In this document: in pieces, positions 3,646 to 8,436 of the stretch
How the letters are laid out: the number at the start of each line of letters is the position of its first letter
Position numbering within the stretch: position 1 is the stretch's first letter
From: a virus
Lineage: Duplodnaviria > Heunggongvirae > Uroviricota > Caudoviricetes
Direction: 5' to 3' (one strand)
Virus record (IMG/VR): IMGVR_UViG_2548876860_000011
Span: 1-8,436 of that record
Length of the DNA: 8,436 nt
The notes under the pieces: model-generated
Seen by the model: the letters and a program-made list of their open reading frames with translations, nothing else
What the model was told of the DNA's origin: nothing
Databases searched by the model: none
Made by a program: the position numbers and the translations under genes

Positions 3646-3879
3646 AGAAACCTCCAGCCGTATGTCAGACTGAAAGTATAGGGCAGTTAGAAAAAGTGGT
3701 GCACACCGTTAAAGATTTAAAAGGAGCATGTAAGGTAAATCGGAATGATGGTTTTGTGAATTGATGAATTCCGAAAGTGAAAAAGATACTTAATCATTGT
3801 GTGCTGGCGATACGGGGGCAACATTTGACGGGGTTTTTCCCCTGTAATTCCCCATTGCTTCCCCGTTCAGAAAACAGGC

Positions 3880-3904
3880 AAAAAAACCAGCCGTAACAGG
3901 CTGG
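3880..3904 (-). terminator. rho-independent terminator (native tRNA terminator carried in repeat copy 1; also terminates the 4043-4828 gene)
   Basis: On the minus strand: CCAGCC-tgttac-GGCTGG hairpin followed by T7. Confidence 0.7.
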
Positions 3905-3919
3905 TTCTTCGAGGATTTT

Positions 3920-3964
3920 TGGTCGGCACGAGAGGATTTGAACCTCCGCCCCCCGACACCCCAT
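3920..3964 (-). pseudogene. tRNA-Pro 3' fragment (about 45 nt: anticodon-proximal part, T-arm, acceptor 3' strand and CCA); not a complete tRNA gene
   Basis: Minus-strand sequence ATGGGGTGTCGGGGGGCGGAGGTTCAAATCCTCTCGTGCCGACCA has T-stem/loop GGAGG-TTCAAAT-CCTCT, acceptor 3' strand, discriminator A and CCA. It matches the 3' portion of E. coli proL tRNA-Pro(GGG) as remembered, with one mismatch. The 5' half is absent; flanking sequence diverges after 3964. Confidence 0.7.
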
Positions 3965-4042: not shown

Positions 4043-4828
4043 TCACATACGGATAAAATTTTTTCTATTGATTTTGTCTCTATCAGAGCCATAAATGATG
4101 GTTGCAAAAAAACGACCTAATTCAAGATGGTGGAAGTGATTATCTTTTGCTTGAACTGTCATTGAGTCTAATATGTTATAGATGCATTCTATGATATGAA
4201 TAACTAATAAAGTGCGATAACCAGCAAGCATTTCACTTCTTTTAAGTAAATAATTTAAATCCCCTGCAGAGTTTATATGGTTTCTGTCTTCATCATAATA
4301 TCCAAGCACATAGCATGGCAGTGTTTCACCATAGCTTCGGTATTGCTCGCATTTTTTATCAATTATATTTTTTTGTCTTTTTGTTAATATTTTGTCGTAA
4401 ATGCTCTTATCGATTTCATTATACCATTGCTTCATGGGATCATTGTCGTTGTCATTAGTAATGAAATCAATATTACTATATCTTGATGAATTTGCAAAAT
4501 TAGTTAACAACTCCATCACTCTGTAGTGAATTTCATTTAAGCCAGAGGGAGAATCAACTCTCTCAATGACTAGGTTAAATAACTTGCTTAAGTTATGACC
4601 GTAATCTCTTAATTTTTTGCGTGATGTATATTTTCCATTTTTATTATAATCATCAAGCATAAGGCAAAGTTTCATAAGCCTTTCTAATCCTAAACTGATG
4701 CCGGATAATGCTTGAAAATACAATCCTCTACTTGCAAAATTTGCTTTCCTTAGGGAAGTGAGCCCTATGCCTAATAATTGTCTTGAAAAGTCAACCTCAT
4801 CAACAAATCTTCTGTATTTTTCATCCAT
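4043..4828 (-). CDS. hypothetical protein (AT-rich cargo gene; possible phage-defence/abortive-infection candidate, function unknown)
   Basis: The ORF track gives 4043-4858 (271 aa), but position 4856-4858 is a TTG with no RBS. The in-frame ATG at 4826-4828 has GAGG 6-9 nt upstream, giving 261 aa starting MDEKYRRFVDEVDF. GC content is roughly 30%, against roughly 50% in the prophage genes to the left. No catalytic motif recognised by eye. Confidence 0.6.
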   Translation of the reverse strand: MDEKYRRFVDEVDFSRQLLGIGLTSLRKANFASRGLYFQALSGISLGLERLMKLCLMLDDYNKNGKYTSRKKLRDYGHNLSKLFNLVIERVDSPSGLNEIHYRVMELLTNFANSSRYSNIDFITNDNDNDPMKQWYNEIDKSIYDKILTKRQKNIIDKKCEQYRSYGETLPCYVLGYYDEDRNHINSAGDLNYLLKRSEMLAGYRTLLVIHIIECIYNILDSMTVQAKDNHFHHLELGRFFATIIYGSDRDKINRKNFIRM

Positions 4829-4892
4829 AAAAACCTCAGTCAGCCAATTAATATTCAAGAATGATTTCTATAAAGAACTAATCTAGTTAAAT

Positions 4893-5014: not shown

Positions 5015-5136
5015 TAATTTCCCCATTGCTTCCCCGTTCAGAAAACAGGCAAAAAAAACCAGCCGTAACAGGCTGGTTCTTCGAGGATTTTTGGTCAGCA
5101 CGAGAGGATTTGAACCTCCGCCCCCCGACACCCCAT
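5015..5136 (-). repeat. direct repeat copy 2 (~122 bp): flank + intrinsic terminator + tRNA-Pro-like fragment
   Basis: About 97% identical to 3845-3964. Confidence 0.9.
5051..5076 (-). terminator. rho-independent terminator (copy 2; downstream of the 5333-6301 gene on the minus strand)
   Basis: CCAGCC-tgttac-GGCTGG hairpin followed by T8 on the minus strand. Confidence 0.7.
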
Positions 5137-5150
5137 GGCGGTGATCTACC
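5092..5150 (-). pseudogene. degenerate tRNA-Pro-like fragment (about 60 nt from the D-loop region to CCA; 5' part not recognisable)
   Basis: Same T-arm and acceptor 3' end as copy 1, with G to A in the acceptor strand. The match to tRNA-Pro extends further (GGTAGATCACCGCCATGGGG vs GGTAGCGCACCGTCATGGGG) with mismatches. No convincing 5' acceptor strand. Confidence 0.6.
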
Positions 5151-5332
5151 TTCTCATCAAGGGTAACCATGTGCCAGAAGCAGCCCTTGCGCACATTGGA
5201 TGGGTATCAAATAATGAAGTAGGTCAACTTTATTAAATAAAATTGTGTTGGTTCAGATGATCGAATGGGAATGAATAGTTTATTACTTTTGGTGACCGCA
5301 AGCGCGATCACCTTCGATTTGGTGGCAATTAC

Positions 5333-6301
5333 CTAGAATGATGCACAATCTTTAAGCTCTTTTTCTAGTTGTTCAACCAAGTCACAGCATTTTTTGATAA
5401 CATCTTTAACTGACTCTGAATCTAACTTATGAAAATTACCATTTTTTGTTTTACCTGCTCGATGAACTAAGTCATGCCTAATTAACACGCTTTTATAAAC
5501 TTCTGTGAAAACAGGGAATTTAATACCAAAGGTATCTCGATACATGCCACTTACTTTTGGCAGATTATGATAAAGAACACTCTTCATAGACTCTATCGCT
5601 TGAGACTCTATTTGTTCATGCCTTATAAATAATTCAGAAAGTAAGAATTTTTCTGTATTGTAATCTTTGAAGGTTTCAACAAAATTTCTCAAATTAGTTT
5701 GGCTACCATGAATTAGGGAAATAAATCTGTCACATAAATATGTTTCCAAGGAAGTTATTGTATTGGCATATAGCATATACGATATTTGTATTTGTAAAGT
5801 GCTATCAATTTTTAACTGAGCATCATTTAGTTTTATGGCGTTCTGCATACTATTTTGGAATGTCATATAGACATCTCGTTCAGATAGCGTTCGATCATCA
5901 GAGTACTGCATATCAATAACATCTAGAATGCGCTGTTCGATTAATGAAGGTCTATTCAACTGTAATATATCTATAGTCGCATGTCCTCGCTCAGTTAAAC
6001 CTTCTAAATATCCATTTTTATTTTGTTTCATATGTTCTGAAAAACTTTCATTTAAAGGATTTAGAAGTAATGGTTTGCCATTTTCATCGAGAGGAAACTG
6101 ATCTTTTTTAATCATGCTACATGCCTTACAAGCGATGAGCAGGTTGTCTGTAGCATCTTGGAAGTCAGTATACTTTGATTTTGGGAAAAAACGATCAACA
6201 TCCGCCATCAATGGTTCATAAAGTTTAGTGCCACAGTAAGCACATTGATGCTTAAACTTCTCCCATAGTTCAAGTTTAAACGTTTTATAATTCTTATTCA
6301 T
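5333..6301 (-). CDS. hypothetical protein with N-terminal HNH-like Cys-rich motif and C-terminal HEPN-like Rx4H motif (candidate nuclease/RNase toxin or abortive-infection effector)
   Basis: 322-aa ORF with ATG at 6299-6301 and AAGGAA RBS. N-terminus: CAYCG...DVDRFFPKSKY...DNLLIACKACSMIKKD, an HNH-type CxxC...D-x-D-[H]...N...CxxC layout, but with Arg where the catalytic His normally sits. C-terminus: SVLIRHDLVHRAGK, i.e. R-x4-H as in HEPN RNase motifs. Very AT-rich. Occupies the slot next to icdC where K-12 e14 carries mcrA. Confidence 0.7.
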   Translation of the reverse strand: MNKNYKTFKLELWEKFKHQCAYCGTKLYEPLMADVDRFFPKSKYTDFQDATDNLLIACKACSMIKKDQFPLDENGKPLLLNPLNESFSEHMKQNKNGYLEGLTERGHATIDILQLNRPSLIEQRILDVIDMQYSDDRTLSERDVYMTFQNSMQNAIKLNDAQLKIDSTLQIQISYMLYANTITSLETYLCDRFISLIHGSQTNLRNFVETFKDYNTEKFLLSELFIRHEQIESQAIESMKSVLYHNLPKVSGMYRDTFGIKFPVFTEVYKSVLIRHDLVHRAGKTKNGNFHKLDSESVKDVIKKCCDLVEQLEKELKDCASF

Positions 6302-6745
6302 TGAATAGTTCCTTTATATTCTTGACTTGATTGTTTGTTTGCCAATTTAAGCCAAAGACACACGACTTTAATTGGGCTTGAATCATAGTTATATGTAATC
6401 TATTAAGCAAACACTTTTCATTAATAGCATGAGATAACGCTCAATTCTTTATTTTCCGGGAGTGTGTAACTTCATATCCACCTCTCACTCACAGCGTACG
6501 TTATTGGCGAAAAATTTAGTTAAGCCATTGATAGTTTGTGAAAACACGCATGATTTAAAATCCCTTTGCCGTGAAGGGGCTGATAGGTACAGGCACTTGT
6601 TTTTGCCCTCTAAAACGGTTATCAAAACCAAAAAACATACATTGATAATCAATAGGTTAGGGGAAAGATAAAAGCCAGTTGATTTACAATAAAATTATAG
6701 GATTATTTTTATTTATCATGCGGTTGTATATGAACCATCTAACTA

Positions 6746-6910
6746 CTGTTACGCCATATGGGCTGGACTGAAGCCGCAGACCTGATTGTTAAAGGTATGG
6801 AAGGCGCAATCAATGCGAAGACCGTAACCTATGACTTCGAGCGTCTGATGGAAGGCGCTAAACTGCTGAAATGTTCAGAATTTGGTGATGCGATCATCAA
6901 GAACATGTAA
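6746..6910 (+). pseudogene. icdC: displaced 3'-terminal fragment of icd (isocitrate dehydrogenase), the att-site duplication at the right end of the e14-like element
   Basis: In-frame translation [55 protein letters not shown] matches the Icd C-terminus as remembered. An in-frame stop precedes it at 6740-6742 and no icd-like coding sequence lies upstream (AT-rich intergenic DNA). The length (about 165 nt) matches the icdC remnant of K-12. Confidence 0.8.
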
Positions 6911-6933
6911 TCACTACATGTGTTTAATATTGC

Positions 6934-6967
6934 AACGGGCGTATAACACGCCCGTTGTTTTATTTAT
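6934..6967 (+). terminator. rho-independent terminator of icd
   Basis: AACGGGCG-tataaca-CGCCCGTT perfect 8-bp stem followed by GTTTTATTTAT, beginning 24 nt after the icd stop. Confidence 0.75.
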
Positions 6968-7012
6968 GTAGGTACTATTAATAGCATATCGAGCATATTT
7001 ATATAAAACCCT

Positions 7013-7336
7013 TTACTTGAGCCCATATGGGCATATTTTTATAATGCAACTATTATGCAAACATTTATTTGTTATTTTTCTTTCTCCTGGAGGACACTCT
7101 TGACTGCTTTTGAGTAGACTCCATAAATCCTTGTTGAATGGTGCGATGTTATAAATAGTAATAGGATATTCTTTATCTTTAAGGATAATTCCAGATTTAA
7201 CCGGTGTAAATATACTGCCAGGAGGGAGAAATATAGTAGATTGATACCAGATGATCATTTTCATATTACCCCATATGGCTGAAAAAGATATGCCGCATGA
7301 AGGTTGAATTATCGTGTCAATTACTATCCACTTCAT
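7013..7336 (-). CDS. iraM: anti-adaptor protein IraM (inhibitor of RssB-mediated RpoS degradation)
   Basis: 107-aa AT-rich [35 protein letters not shown]... Length, sequence as remembered and position immediately right of icdC match E. coli iraM (elbA). Confidence 0.75.
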
Positions 7337-7773
7337 TTGTTATGTCTTATCCCACGGTATTTAATATACTTCATTTGGATGTTCATTTCTTTATTTTGCA
7401 TATGAGTATATTACCCCTTCAAAAAATAAATTAATTAAAACGATTGCTTATATAAAACAAAATTTAAAGCAAGGAATCTCAATGGATGTTAAACAAAATG
7501 AGATTTAGTGAAAACAATAAATTATTCACTTCGTTTTAGATTTGTTTAGCTATAATGTTATACATTCAAATGACTGAACATCCTGTAATTAAAACATAGC
7601 CTTTATGCTACTTTGTGCCAATTTGCTAAACATTATGGTTGCCTTTTTATATAACGATAATAATGAATATAAGCATGACATGAGAATAAGGTTTCAATTT
7701 TTGAGTTATATAGGAAAGGTTTAACCTGTTCCTGGCTAAAATACATATAACTGGATGATGACTAAACCAAAAC

Positions 7774-7828
7774 ACATGTGCGTTAAGTATTGAAACGGGC
7801 GTATGGCACACCCGTTGTTTTTATAAAT
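7774..7828. repeat. second, diverged copy of the icd terminator region (hairpin AACGGGCG-tatggca-CACCCGTT + T-run)
   Basis: ACATGTGCGTTAAGTATTGAAACGGGCGTATGGCACACCCGTTGTTTTTAT is about 80% identical to 6917-6967. It lies between iraM and ycgX, oriented as a plus-strand terminator although both neighbours are minus-strand genes. Confidence 0.6.
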
Positions 7829-8031
7829 ATATTAACCGTTATAAAATAACGTATAGAAAGTCAAGTGATCACATTTCAAATATCAATTTGATAGTATTGG
7901 CATGGTGATTATTTATGGGTAGCAATAAAAGGACAGTATTTATCATCCATAGGGATAGTCTCTGTACTTTTATTCCCATTATGCTAATGCCTTACTGAAT
8001 TATGAAGCATTTCTTAAGCATCCAACTTTAG

Positions 8032-8436
8032 CTAGATTAATGGTTTATTATTTTCTACATCTTCAATATATAAAAGCGTATTATCAATGGCGTAGTAACT
8101 GCGTTTGTTATGATTAACATCAGTAACCCACCGGAAAACGCCCGCGCCTGCTAGTGTTGAACAGTATTCCCGAAATGTAGATTTTCCGCAAATATGAAGC
8201 AATGCGGCCTCTTTTATTTTAGCAGGGTTCTTGGTCGTACTAACTTTTAACAGGTTCCTGGTTCCTCTTAATAACAAAACCGTGTCATCGTGAGTAATAA
8301 TTCTGATGTTATCCGTAGCCAGATAATAAATGTAATGTGCAATACGGTGATGTTTTAATTCTGAATAAAACCAGGAGAAGTTTTGCTCTTTTCTCACTTG
8401 CTCAAACATCTTTTGAAAAACAACGACCTGATCCAT
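8032..8436 (-). CDS. ycgX: YcgX-like protein (DUF1398 family), host gene
   Basis: 134-aa ORF starting at the window edge (ATG at 8434-8436 on the minus strand). Length and position after iraM match the K-12 order icdC-iraM-ycgX. Sequence recognised only by context and approximate memory. Confidence 0.65.
   Translation of the reverse strand: MDQVVVFQKMFEQVRKEQNFSWFYSELKHHRIAHYIYYLATDNIRIITHDDTVLLLRGTRNLLKVSTTKNPAKIKEAALLHICGKSTFREYCSTLAGAGVFRWVTDVNHNKRSYYAIDNTLLYIEDVENNKPLI

What the first reader, a model, noticed from the sequence alone, without database searches (positions are those of the whole stretch)
6917..7828. iraM is flanked by two copies of the icd terminator region
Seen in sequence: the icd terminator hairpin and flank (6917-6967) recur at 7774-7828 with about 80% identity, in plus orientation, between two minus-strand genes where a plus-strand terminator has no obvious role. 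Inference: the second copy may be a relic of an older icd-targeted integration event, which would make iraM itself ancient cargo captured at the icd att site.
Basis: inference. Interest (0 to 1): 0.4.

Follow-up and report, generated by a model that had tools for sequence, protein, structure and literature searches.

The report
Old prophage scar flanking iraM
The RpoS-stabiliser gene iraM of E. coli sits between two copies of the terminator that follows the icd gene, and the second copy is most likely the orphaned original icd terminator left by an ancient phage-type insertion at icd, an ordinary kind of genome scar that also explains how one fifth of E. coli strains lost iraM cleanly.

Summary
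Copy A (6916-6963) and copy B (7774-7824) are a direct repeat of about 82-84% identity, far above chance, with a median of two copies per E. coli genome, so it is not a generic repeat.

- The repeated module (spacer after the icd stop, hairpin, T-run) is what phage 21 and e14-type phages carry and duplicate when they integrate into icd. It ends at the same base as the phage/chromosome homology.
- 1036 of 5426 complete E. coli genomes (B2 strains such as ATCC 11775 and LF82) lack iraM and have one terminator with the left side of A and the right flank of B.
- A divergent "E. coli" lineage outside the sampled phylogroups has both iraM and copy B, and its copy B still carries the last codons of icd. 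The two-copy state is therefore probably ancestral, and B2 probably lost iraM by recombination between A and B.
- IraM homologues are otherwise cargo genes of lambdoid and Stx prophages.

No integrase remnant or full 165-bp icd fragment survives, and the copy B hairpin is decaying in some lineages. This is a new example of a known kind of scar, of modest interest.

The parts
6600..6743 (+). Right end (P-arm side of attR) of the resident e14-like prophage, with a GTTATCAAAA arm-type motif at 6618-6627
   Evidence: prophage genes to the left; 98.8% identical to strain fEC.1. (motif). Homology with phage-borne icd segments starts at 6744.
6744..6910 (+). icd' 3' fragment (last ~55 codons plus stop), displaced by the resident prophage. 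It is the chromosomal copy from before that integration.
   Evidence: Annotated as a partial isocitrate dehydrogenase in fEC.1. Equivalent to icdC of K-12. 92-97% identical to the icd segments of phage 21-like phages.
6916..6963 (+). Copy A: spacer, hairpin and T-run of the icd terminator; convergent with iraM
   Evidence: -20.9 kcal/mol; called as a terminator. Phage/chromosome homology ends at 6963. Phage 21 annotates the same element as a terminator.
6964..7012 (.). 3' flank of iraM, the first part of the iraM unit
   Evidence: BLAST homology with the outgroup lineage starts at window 6958 in the longest alignment (6981 when the window itself is the query). In the outgroup it abuts a different terminator's T-run.
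7013..7336 (-). iraM (anti-adaptor of RssB; PmrD family PF11183; PHROG 4407)
   Evidence: Homologues of 57-71% identity are cargo genes in lambdoid/Stx prophages.
7337..7773 (-). iraM upstream region, including the small gene ymgK (7589-7633). 7370-7730 is homologous to the region upstream of a ymgB-like gene in the outgroup. 7746-7775 is the stump of a ~225-nt segment otherwise deleted in E. coli.
7774..7824 (+). Copy B: orphaned copy of the icd spacer/hairpin/T-run module, inferred to be the relic attR-side (original chromosomal) icd terminator. The hairpin is weakened by a G-to-A change in the 3' stem.
   Evidence: (-9.9 kcal/mol on +, -13.4 on -). The orthologous copy in the outgroup keeps the icd tail.
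7825..7868 (.). Right flank of copy B, identical to the right flank of the single terminator in iraM-less genomes. It weakly resembles an e14-type P' arm in the same register (tentative).
   Evidence: flank identity. (local alignment p about 0.002-0.013; register-restricted p 0.016-0.04).
7869..7979 (-). ymgL (small protein gene); its stop codon is 45 nt from copy B
   Evidence: Annotation of fEC.1 and K-12; start and stop codons checked in the sequence.
8032..8436 (-). ycgX (DUF1398), a gene family otherwise found in the late regions of lambdoid prophages
   Evidence: PHROG 413.

Best explanation
Copy B is most likely the orphaned original terminator of icd. An integrative element of the kind that targets icd (as phage 21 and e14 do) inserted there before E. 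coli diversified. Such elements bring their own copy of the icd 3' end and terminator, which became the copy next to icd (the position of A). The chromosome's own icd 3' end and terminator were pushed to the far side of the element (the position of B). The element then decayed by internal deletions until, in E. coli proper, only iraM and its control region remain between two ~50-nt direct repeats 860 bp apart. iraM is surviving cargo of that element. The copy next to icd keeps being overwritten by the nearly identical modules of later icd-targeting phages. Copy B instead drifts, with a loop change and stem mismatches. In phylogroup B2 a recombination between A and B removed iraM and left one terminator. 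Shown here: the repeat, its specificity to this locus, the phage-borne module and its boundary, the one-copy allele, the icd tail beside copy B in an outgroup, and the prophage distribution of the IraM family. Inferred: that an integrase made the duplication, which copy was chromosomal, and the order of the deletions.
For: 1. The repeat is real and locus-specific. It is 84% identical over 43 nt against at most 30 of 43 in shuffles. E. coli genomes hold a median of two copies. A scan of 185,579 species genomes with a degenerate hairpin pattern found it only next to icd or in this locus in Escherichia, Shigella and Citrobacter, plus scattered hits in unrelated bacteria at about the number I had estimated by hand for chance.
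2. Phage 21-like phages and e14 carry icd 3' end, terminator, arm sites and int. Their homology with the chromosome covers window 6744-6963, ending where the A/B repeat ends.
3. 1036 of 5426 genomes (ATCC 11775, LF82, ATCC 25922 and others) have icd'-single terminator-ymgL-ycgX. Its left flank and loop are of the A type and its right flank is that of B.
4. A lineage that lies outside all sampled E. coli on both flanks has icd-A-e14-type arm-455 aa-trkG-iraM-ymgB-like-copy B-ycgX. Examples are MFDS1022581 and GCA_040836545; 17 complete genomes match at 95% or more. Left-flank identity is 96.4-96.8% against 97.7-98.7% within E. coli; right-flank identity is 92.6-94% against 96.8-99%. Its copy B is preceded by ATCAAGAATATGTTAA, 12 of 13 matches to the end of icd in colinear register. 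BLAST joins this with the hairpin into one 65-66-nt match to icd ends of phages and chromosomes at 80-83% identity.
5. Divergence from that lineage rises smoothly towards icd: bluR about 96%, ycgX 87%, the block of copy B, ymgL and ycgX 80%, iraM 79%. There is no break at copy B, which fits one old block rather than separate acquisitions.
6. IraM homologues of 57-71% identity are cargo genes of lambdoid/Stx prophages. IraM, TrkG and YcgX all fall in PHROG families.
Against: No integrase, excisionase or structural gene remnant lies between A and B in any genome examined. Nowhere is the full 165-bp icd' segment with the crossover core found next to B; the outgroup keeps only about 15 nt of icd tail, and an unanchored test gives just p 0.02-0.05. 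In E. coli proper the left edge of B is a deletion endpoint, so the original extent of the duplication cannot be read there. In the outgroup, trkG and the e14-type arm beside A could belong to a later insertion. The polarity rests on one outgroup lineage, because representatives of E. albertii, E. ruysiae and others showed only prophage attL junctions. A Campbell-type insertion through homologous recombination of a circular DNA carrying a terminator copy would give the same repeat.
Confidence: 0.68

Rival explanations
1. The scar is the same kind but the polarity is reversed. The one-copy arrangement of B2 strains is the ancestral empty site, and an iraM-carrying element inserted later in the ancestor of the other phylogroups, and separately in the divergent lineage. 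On this reading iraM is a more recent gain and was never lost from B2.
For: Among the E. coli loci compared, the B2-type flanks are the most distant (96.8-97.4% against 97.9-98.7%), so within E. coli alone gain and loss are equally parsimonious. iraM and its upstream region are only 72-79% identical between E. coli and the divergent lineage. The single copy has A-type sequence throughout.
Against: The divergent lineage lies outside B2 and the rest on both flanks, yet has iraM and copy B in the same order. Its copy B shares the B-specific TTAAGTATTG. Divergence shows no step at copy B. Two independent insertions that left the same scar would be needed.
Confidence: 0.15
2. Copy B is kept mainly for a present function. 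It would act as a bidirectional terminator or insulator that ends ycgX-ymgL transcription on the minus strand and shields the PhoP-controlled iraM promoter. The duplication need not involve a phage; it could be a local duplication or a Campbell-type homologous insertion.
For: Copy B lies 45 nt past the ymgL stop codon. In iraM-less genomes the single hairpin sits 34 nt from ymgL. In the window the hairpin is better on the minus strand (-13.4, z -2.6) than on the plus strand (-9.9, z -0.4), through a G-U pair. In strain PS_131_S11 it is intact on both strands (-15.3).
Against: The hairpin has picked up uncompensated mismatches in the window and K-12 lineages (about -10 kcal/mol against -20.9 for A). 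The minus-strand tail (UUUCAAUAC) is a poor U-run, and the scan calls no terminator at B on either strand. One sub-lineage (L163) deleted it altogether. The icd tail beside B in the outgroup points to descent from the icd end, not to a purpose-built terminator.
Confidence: 0.12
3. The similarity is chance, or the hairpin belongs to a generic family of repeated terminators or REP-like elements.
For: The element is short (about 50 nt) and dominated by a GC-rich hairpin.
Against: 36 of 43 matches against at most 30 of 43 in shuffles. The similarity includes the non-hairpin spacer. There is a median of two copies per genome, both at this locus. Across 185,579 species the pattern occurs in Enterobacteriaceae only beside icd or in this locus.
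Confidence: 0.01

Closest known systems
attL/attR duplication made by phage 21 and the e14 element when they integrate into icd (Hill et al. 1989 and Wang et al. 1997, cited from my own knowledge; phage 21 genome OL657228 as annotated)
   Same: Same gene, same orientation and same module: the phage supplies a replacement icd 3' end and terminator, and the original is displaced to the far end. The right edge of the A/B repeat coincides with the right edge of the phage/chromosome homology. The window itself holds a current example, an e14-like prophage ending at 6743 with icd' at 6744-6910.
   Different: The repeat around iraM is only about 50 nt. It lacks the crossover core and nearly all of the 165-bp icd segment. 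No int/xis is present, no arm sites are recognisable next to A in E. coli proper, and the enclosed DNA is 0.8 kb rather than 15-45 kb.
Decayed (cryptic) prophages that leave single useful cargo genes in E. coli, such as trkG in Rac (my own knowledge) or iraL on a prophage-like island of CFT073 (PMC4045071)
   Same: An AT-rich, variably present regulator from a phage gene family (PHROG 4407) sits at a known phage integration hotspot. Its paralogue IraL and other homologues sit in lambdoid prophages.
   Different: Here almost everything except the cargo gene and the two att-side terminator copies has gone. The literature places iraM 'on the e14 prophage' (PMC4045071), whereas it lies outside e14's attR.
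Accretion of att-flanked remnants (CIME-type elements) next to integrative elements at the 3' end of a housekeeping gene, for example ICESt1/CIME at fda in Streptococcus thermophilus (my own knowledge)
   Same: Successive insertions at one site push older, decayed, repeat-flanked remnants outwards. The window shows a live e14-like prophage, then the iraM remnant, then possibly an older arm-like relic before ymgL-ycgX.
   Different: A CIME keeps functional att sites and can be mobilised in trans. The repeats around iraM lack the core site, so mobilisation by the phage 21 or e14 integrase is not expected.
Bidirectional intrinsic terminators between convergent genes
   Same: Copy A lies between convergent icd and iraM. 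In iraM-less strains the single copy lies between convergent icd and ymgL. Both strands fold well.
   Different: Copy B now lies between two genes of the same orientation, and its stem is degraded in several lineages.

Membership tests
Prophage att-site duplication of the phage 21 / e14 type at icd | Direct repeats derived from the icd 3' end and terminator bracket the inserted DNA, in the orientation of icd | tested here: met
   The outgroup copy B also carries the icd tail.
Prophage att-site duplication of the phage 21 / e14 type at icd | The repeat spans the crossover core and the whole ~165-bp icd 3' segment | tested here: not met
   No significant icd coding similarity left of copy B in the window, K-12 or PS_131_S11. 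Only about 15 nt of icd tail survives in the outgroup. E. coli proper has a deletion ending at 7774.
Prophage att-site duplication of the phage 21 / e14 type at icd | Integrase/excisionase genes and arm-type binding sites lie next to the attL-side copy | tested here: not met
   Only 49 nt separate copy A from the iraM stop codon, and there is no int. An e14-type arm follows copy A in the outgroup, but without int, and it may be of later origin.
Prophage att-site duplication of the phage 21 / e14 type at icd | Enclosed genes are of phage type | tested here: met
   IraM falls in PHROG 4407 and its homologues sit in Stx/lambdoid prophages. In the outgroup the interval also holds trkG (PHROG 1916).
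Prophage att-site duplication of the phage 21 / e14 type at icd | Presence/absence polymorphism, with an allele carrying a single copy of the repeat | tested here: met
   1036 of 5426 genomes have one terminator joined to the right flank of B.
Rho-independent (intrinsic) terminator | Stable GC-rich hairpin followed at once by a U-run | tested here: met
   This verdict is for copy A: 11-bp stem, -20.9 kcal/mol, z -4.5, called by the scan. Copy B in this window gives -9.9 kcal/mol (z -0.4) on the plus strand and is not called. An intact form exists in PS_131_S11 (-15.3).
Generic dispersed repeat (REP/BIME-like or reused terminator family) | Many copies at unrelated loci in a genome | tested here: not met
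   Median of two places per genome, highest 4-5, all linked to icd, prophage att sites or this locus.

The most novel reading that the evidence does not exclude
The DNA downstream of icd in E. coli may be a layered record of at least three successive integrations at one att site: the current e14-like prophage, the iraM remnant between A and B, and an older e14-type attL relic to the right of B that brought in ymgL-ycgX. Each layer would begin with an icd-terminator copy. On this reading part of the RpoS/biofilm regulatory neighbourhood (iraM, a lost ymgB-like gene, ycgX) was assembled by phage accretion. The orphan terminator would now insulate iraM from ycgX-ymgL read-through, and the repeats would set the rate at which lineages lose iraM.
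Probability: 0.2. Interest if true: 0.45.

Novelty: new member of a known kind. Interest (0 to 1): 0.33.

Why it matters
iraM is one of the three classical anti-adaptors that stabilise RpoS in E. coli K-12, and it is missing from many pathogenic strains.

- **Origin and loss.** The result gives iraM a concrete origin, as leftover cargo of an old icd-integrated element. It also gives a concrete mechanism for its patchy distribution: about 50-nt direct repeats that allow clean loss, as in phylogroup B2.
- **Correction to the literature.** The published statement that iraM lies on e14 is not accurate; iraM lies outside e14's attR.
- **Practical value.** The icd 3' region can be read as a stack of dated integration scars, which is useful for typing and for studies of prophage domestication.

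It does not reveal a new mechanism.

Tried and rejected
1. icd coding remnant left of copy B in this window, K-12 and PS_131_S11: local alignments and sliding gapless matches were not significant. MAFFT aligned 7738-7775 with the icd tail at 58% identity. This is spurious, because that stretch is homologous to a unique segment present in two other lineages.
2. Similarity between the right flanks of A and B: none.
3. Outgroups by a hairpin-pattern scan of species genomes: E. albertii, E. ruysiae, Escherichia sp. MOD1-EC7003 and Citrobacter gave only prophage attL junctions, so they could not set the polarity. The pattern would also have missed the diverged copy B of the outgroup lineage.
4. BluR-based outgroup: in Citrobacter freundii the bluF-bluR-ycgZ module is not next to icd and lacks ycgX, so it is uninformative.
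5. YcgX homologues of E. albertii and Escherichia sp. E10V10 are paralogues elsewhere, in a prophage late region and the fli region.
6. B-type terminator in real phage attP regions: all 27 IMG/VR hits are provirus calls that overrun into the chromosomal iraM locus.
7. Phylogroup of the iraM-positive strains with the most divergent alleles could not be settled from flank identities.
8. An exact e14 arm motif (GTTATCAAAA, at most 1 mismatch) is absent right of copy B, so the arm-like resemblance stays tentative.
9. Literature searches found no description of the duplicated terminator. The supplementary strain tables of PMC4045071 are not held.

Full report
**What the window is.** The window is E. 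coli chromosome at the right end of an e14-like prophage inserted in icd. It is 98.8-98.9% identical to strains CDF6 and fEC.1. From left to right it holds:
- prophage tail and invertase genes and cargo, including an HNH endonuclease at 5333-6301;
- the displaced icd 3' fragment (6744-6910);
- iraM (7013-7336, minus strand);
- the small genes ymgK (7589-7633) and ymgL (7869-7979);
- ycgX (8032-8436).

K-12 has the same layout, with mcrA as the cargo gene.

**Observation.** The repeat is real. The repeat finder gives 6919-6961 against 7779-7821 at 84% identity without gaps. With two small indels the units are 6916-6963 and 7774-7824. Shuffled windows never exceed 30 of 43 matches, against 36 of 43 observed. 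Copy A is a strong terminator directly after the icd' stop. In this window the similarity stops at both edges of the unit.

**Not a generic element.** BLAST of either copy against 5426 complete E. coli genomes finds a median of two places per genome. A degenerate hairpin pattern scanned over one genome from each of 185,579 species gave 24 stretches. Among Enterobacteriaceae they were only icd ends or this locus in Escherichia, Shigella and Citrobacter. The rest were scattered hits in unrelated bacteria, about the number I had estimated by hand for chance.

**What the module is.** Phage 21-like phages carry, in this order, a 165-bp icd 3' pseudogene, the terminator, three arm sites and int. Their homology with the window spans 6744-6963, so it ends where the A/B repeat ends. 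K-12 e14 carries its own diverged version, followed by GTTATCAAAA-type arm repeats. Integration therefore always produces two copies of this module. The phage's copy ends up next to icd, and the old chromosomal copy ends up at the far end.

**iraM-less genomes.**
- About 71% of genomes (3838) have the full two-copy arrangement.
- 1036 genomes, including ATCC 11775, LF82 and ATCC 25922, have icd'-one terminator-ymgL-ycgX.
- That single copy has the spacer and loop of A and the right flank of B.
- O157:H7 has a single terminator match, at icd next to a lambdoid prophage, and no match to the iraM-ycgX segment.

On its own the one-copy allele fits either an empty site or a deletion between the repeats.

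**Polarity.** A YcgX homologue of 89-90% identity led to a lineage labelled E. coli that lies outside all sampled phylogroups on both flanks. It includes GCA_009898965, GCA_040836545 and MFDS1022581, with 17 complete genomes matching. Left-flank identity is 96.4-96.8% against 97.7-98.7% within E. coli. Right-flank identity is 92.6-94% against 96.8-99%. It may be cryptic clade I; that is my inference.

The arrangement in this lineage is: icd, copy A, an e14-type arm, a 455-aa gene, a transposase fragment, trkG, a different terminator, iraM (79% nt identity), a ymgB/ariR-like gene, a ~225-nt segment with a weak IS3-transposase match, copy B, and ycgX. One sub-lineage (L163) has lost 435 nt that include copy B.

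Two details matter:
- This copy B is preceded by ATCAAGAATATGTTAA, the last codons of icd. BLAST joins it with the hairpin into one 65-66-nt match to icd ends at 80-83% identity. At the colinear offset, 12 of 13 matches has a chance probability of about 1e-5 by my binomial estimate. The unanchored test gives p 0.02-0.05.
- Divergence between this lineage and E. coli rises smoothly towards icd, with no step at copy B.

Hence iraM and copy B most likely predate E. coli diversification, and B2 most likely lost iraM by recombination between A and B. In E. coli proper the icd tail next to B was removed by a deletion that ends at 7774. The preceding 30 nt match the start of the 225-nt segment seen in two other lineages.

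**Cargo.** IraM is a PmrD-family protein and falls in PHROG 4407. Homologues of 57-71% identity lie in lambdoid prophages. In Stx2 phages the gene sits between stx2B and nanS-p; in other prophages it sits in the same late region, with LpxR and other cargo in place of stx. TrkG and YcgX also belong to phage families. Published work records iraM as variably present and horizontally linked, but places it on e14 (PMC4045071). It actually lies outside e14's attR.

**State of copy B.** The oldest-looking E. coli allele (PS_131_S11, MS14387) keeps a perfect stem and differs from A in the loop (GG for AA) and the spacer. The window allele has a C-A mismatch on the plus strand, which is a G-U pair on the minus strand. 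K-12 has an A-G mismatch. Folding energies are -20.9 kcal/mol for A, -15.3 for PS_131_S11, and about -10 for the window and K-12. This looks like drift under weak constraint. A residual role as a minus-strand terminator for ycgX-ymgL cannot be excluded.

**Model and its limits.**
- Shown: the points above.
- Inferred: that an integrase made the duplication, that B is the pre-integration chromosomal terminator, and that A has since been overwritten by later phages. A-type sequence is the form found in phages and in Citrobacter.
- Missing: any integrase relic or the crossover core next to B.
- Still possible: the reverse polarity, and a non-phage Campbell-type insertion.

**Verdict.** This is a new, tidy example of a known kind, a decayed integrative element with a domesticated cargo gene. 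Interest is modest.

Noticed in passing
window 3848-3964 and 5019-5136: A ~117-nt direct repeat (99-100% identical, 1172 nt apart) brackets the minus-strand ORF 4043-4858 in the prophage cargo region. On the minus strand it holds a hairpin/T-run and what looks like the 3' end of a tRNA (GGTTCAAATCC...GCCGACCA). ARAGORN finds no whole tRNA. It looks like another att-type duplication.
   Followed up: partly
window 7825-7868; L007 3051-3092: The right flank of copy B, and of the single terminator, resembles the e14-type P' arm (TGCTAACGGTTATCAAAAT..TATCAAAA) at the same distance from the T-run. Local-alignment p is 0.002-0.013 for the single-terminator flank and about 0.05-0.12 for the window's copy B flank; the register-restricted p is 0.016-0.04. 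This hints at a still older e14-like attL in front of ymgL-ycgX. No exact arm motif is present.
   Followed up: partly
L155 (APEC O2-211) about 5064-5820; also hits H89 and H93: IS200C is inserted between copy B and ymgL in several strains. In APEC O2-211 the match to copy B stops at about the end of the T-run.
   Followed up: no
L039 50-6327: In a lambdoid prophage a DUF1398 (YcgX-family) gene and an IraM homologue lie on the same strand, in the same order as ycgX and iraM in the chromosome, separated there by the lysis cassette and nanS-p. ycgX and iraM could both come from phage late regions.
   Followed up: no
L167 3328-8670 (MFDS1022581): The divergent lineage carries trkG (a Rac-prophage gene in K-12, from my knowledge), a 455-aa gene of unknown function, and an extra ymgB/ariR-family gene next to iraM. 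E. coli proper lacks all three at this site, and ymgK lies in what was the upstream region of the ymgB-like gene.
   Followed up: partly
L006 2965-2993 (K-12 copy B): Both partners of one stem base pair changed (G-C to A-G) without restoring pairing, and a loop-edge change adds a new G-C pair. This is an odd pattern for a decaying hairpin.
   Followed up: no
window 6744-7336 and K-12 L006 1914-2504: Published text places iraM 'on the e14 prophage' (PMC4045071). In K-12 and in this window it lies beyond the prophage's attR (icdC plus terminator).
   Followed up: yes
L044 4730-9587 (Citrobacter freundii): The bluF-bluR-ycgZ-ymgA/B module exists in Citrobacter, but next to a fimbrial operon and gdhA rather than icd, and without ycgX. 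Its position next to icd in E. coli is therefore secondary.
   Followed up: no
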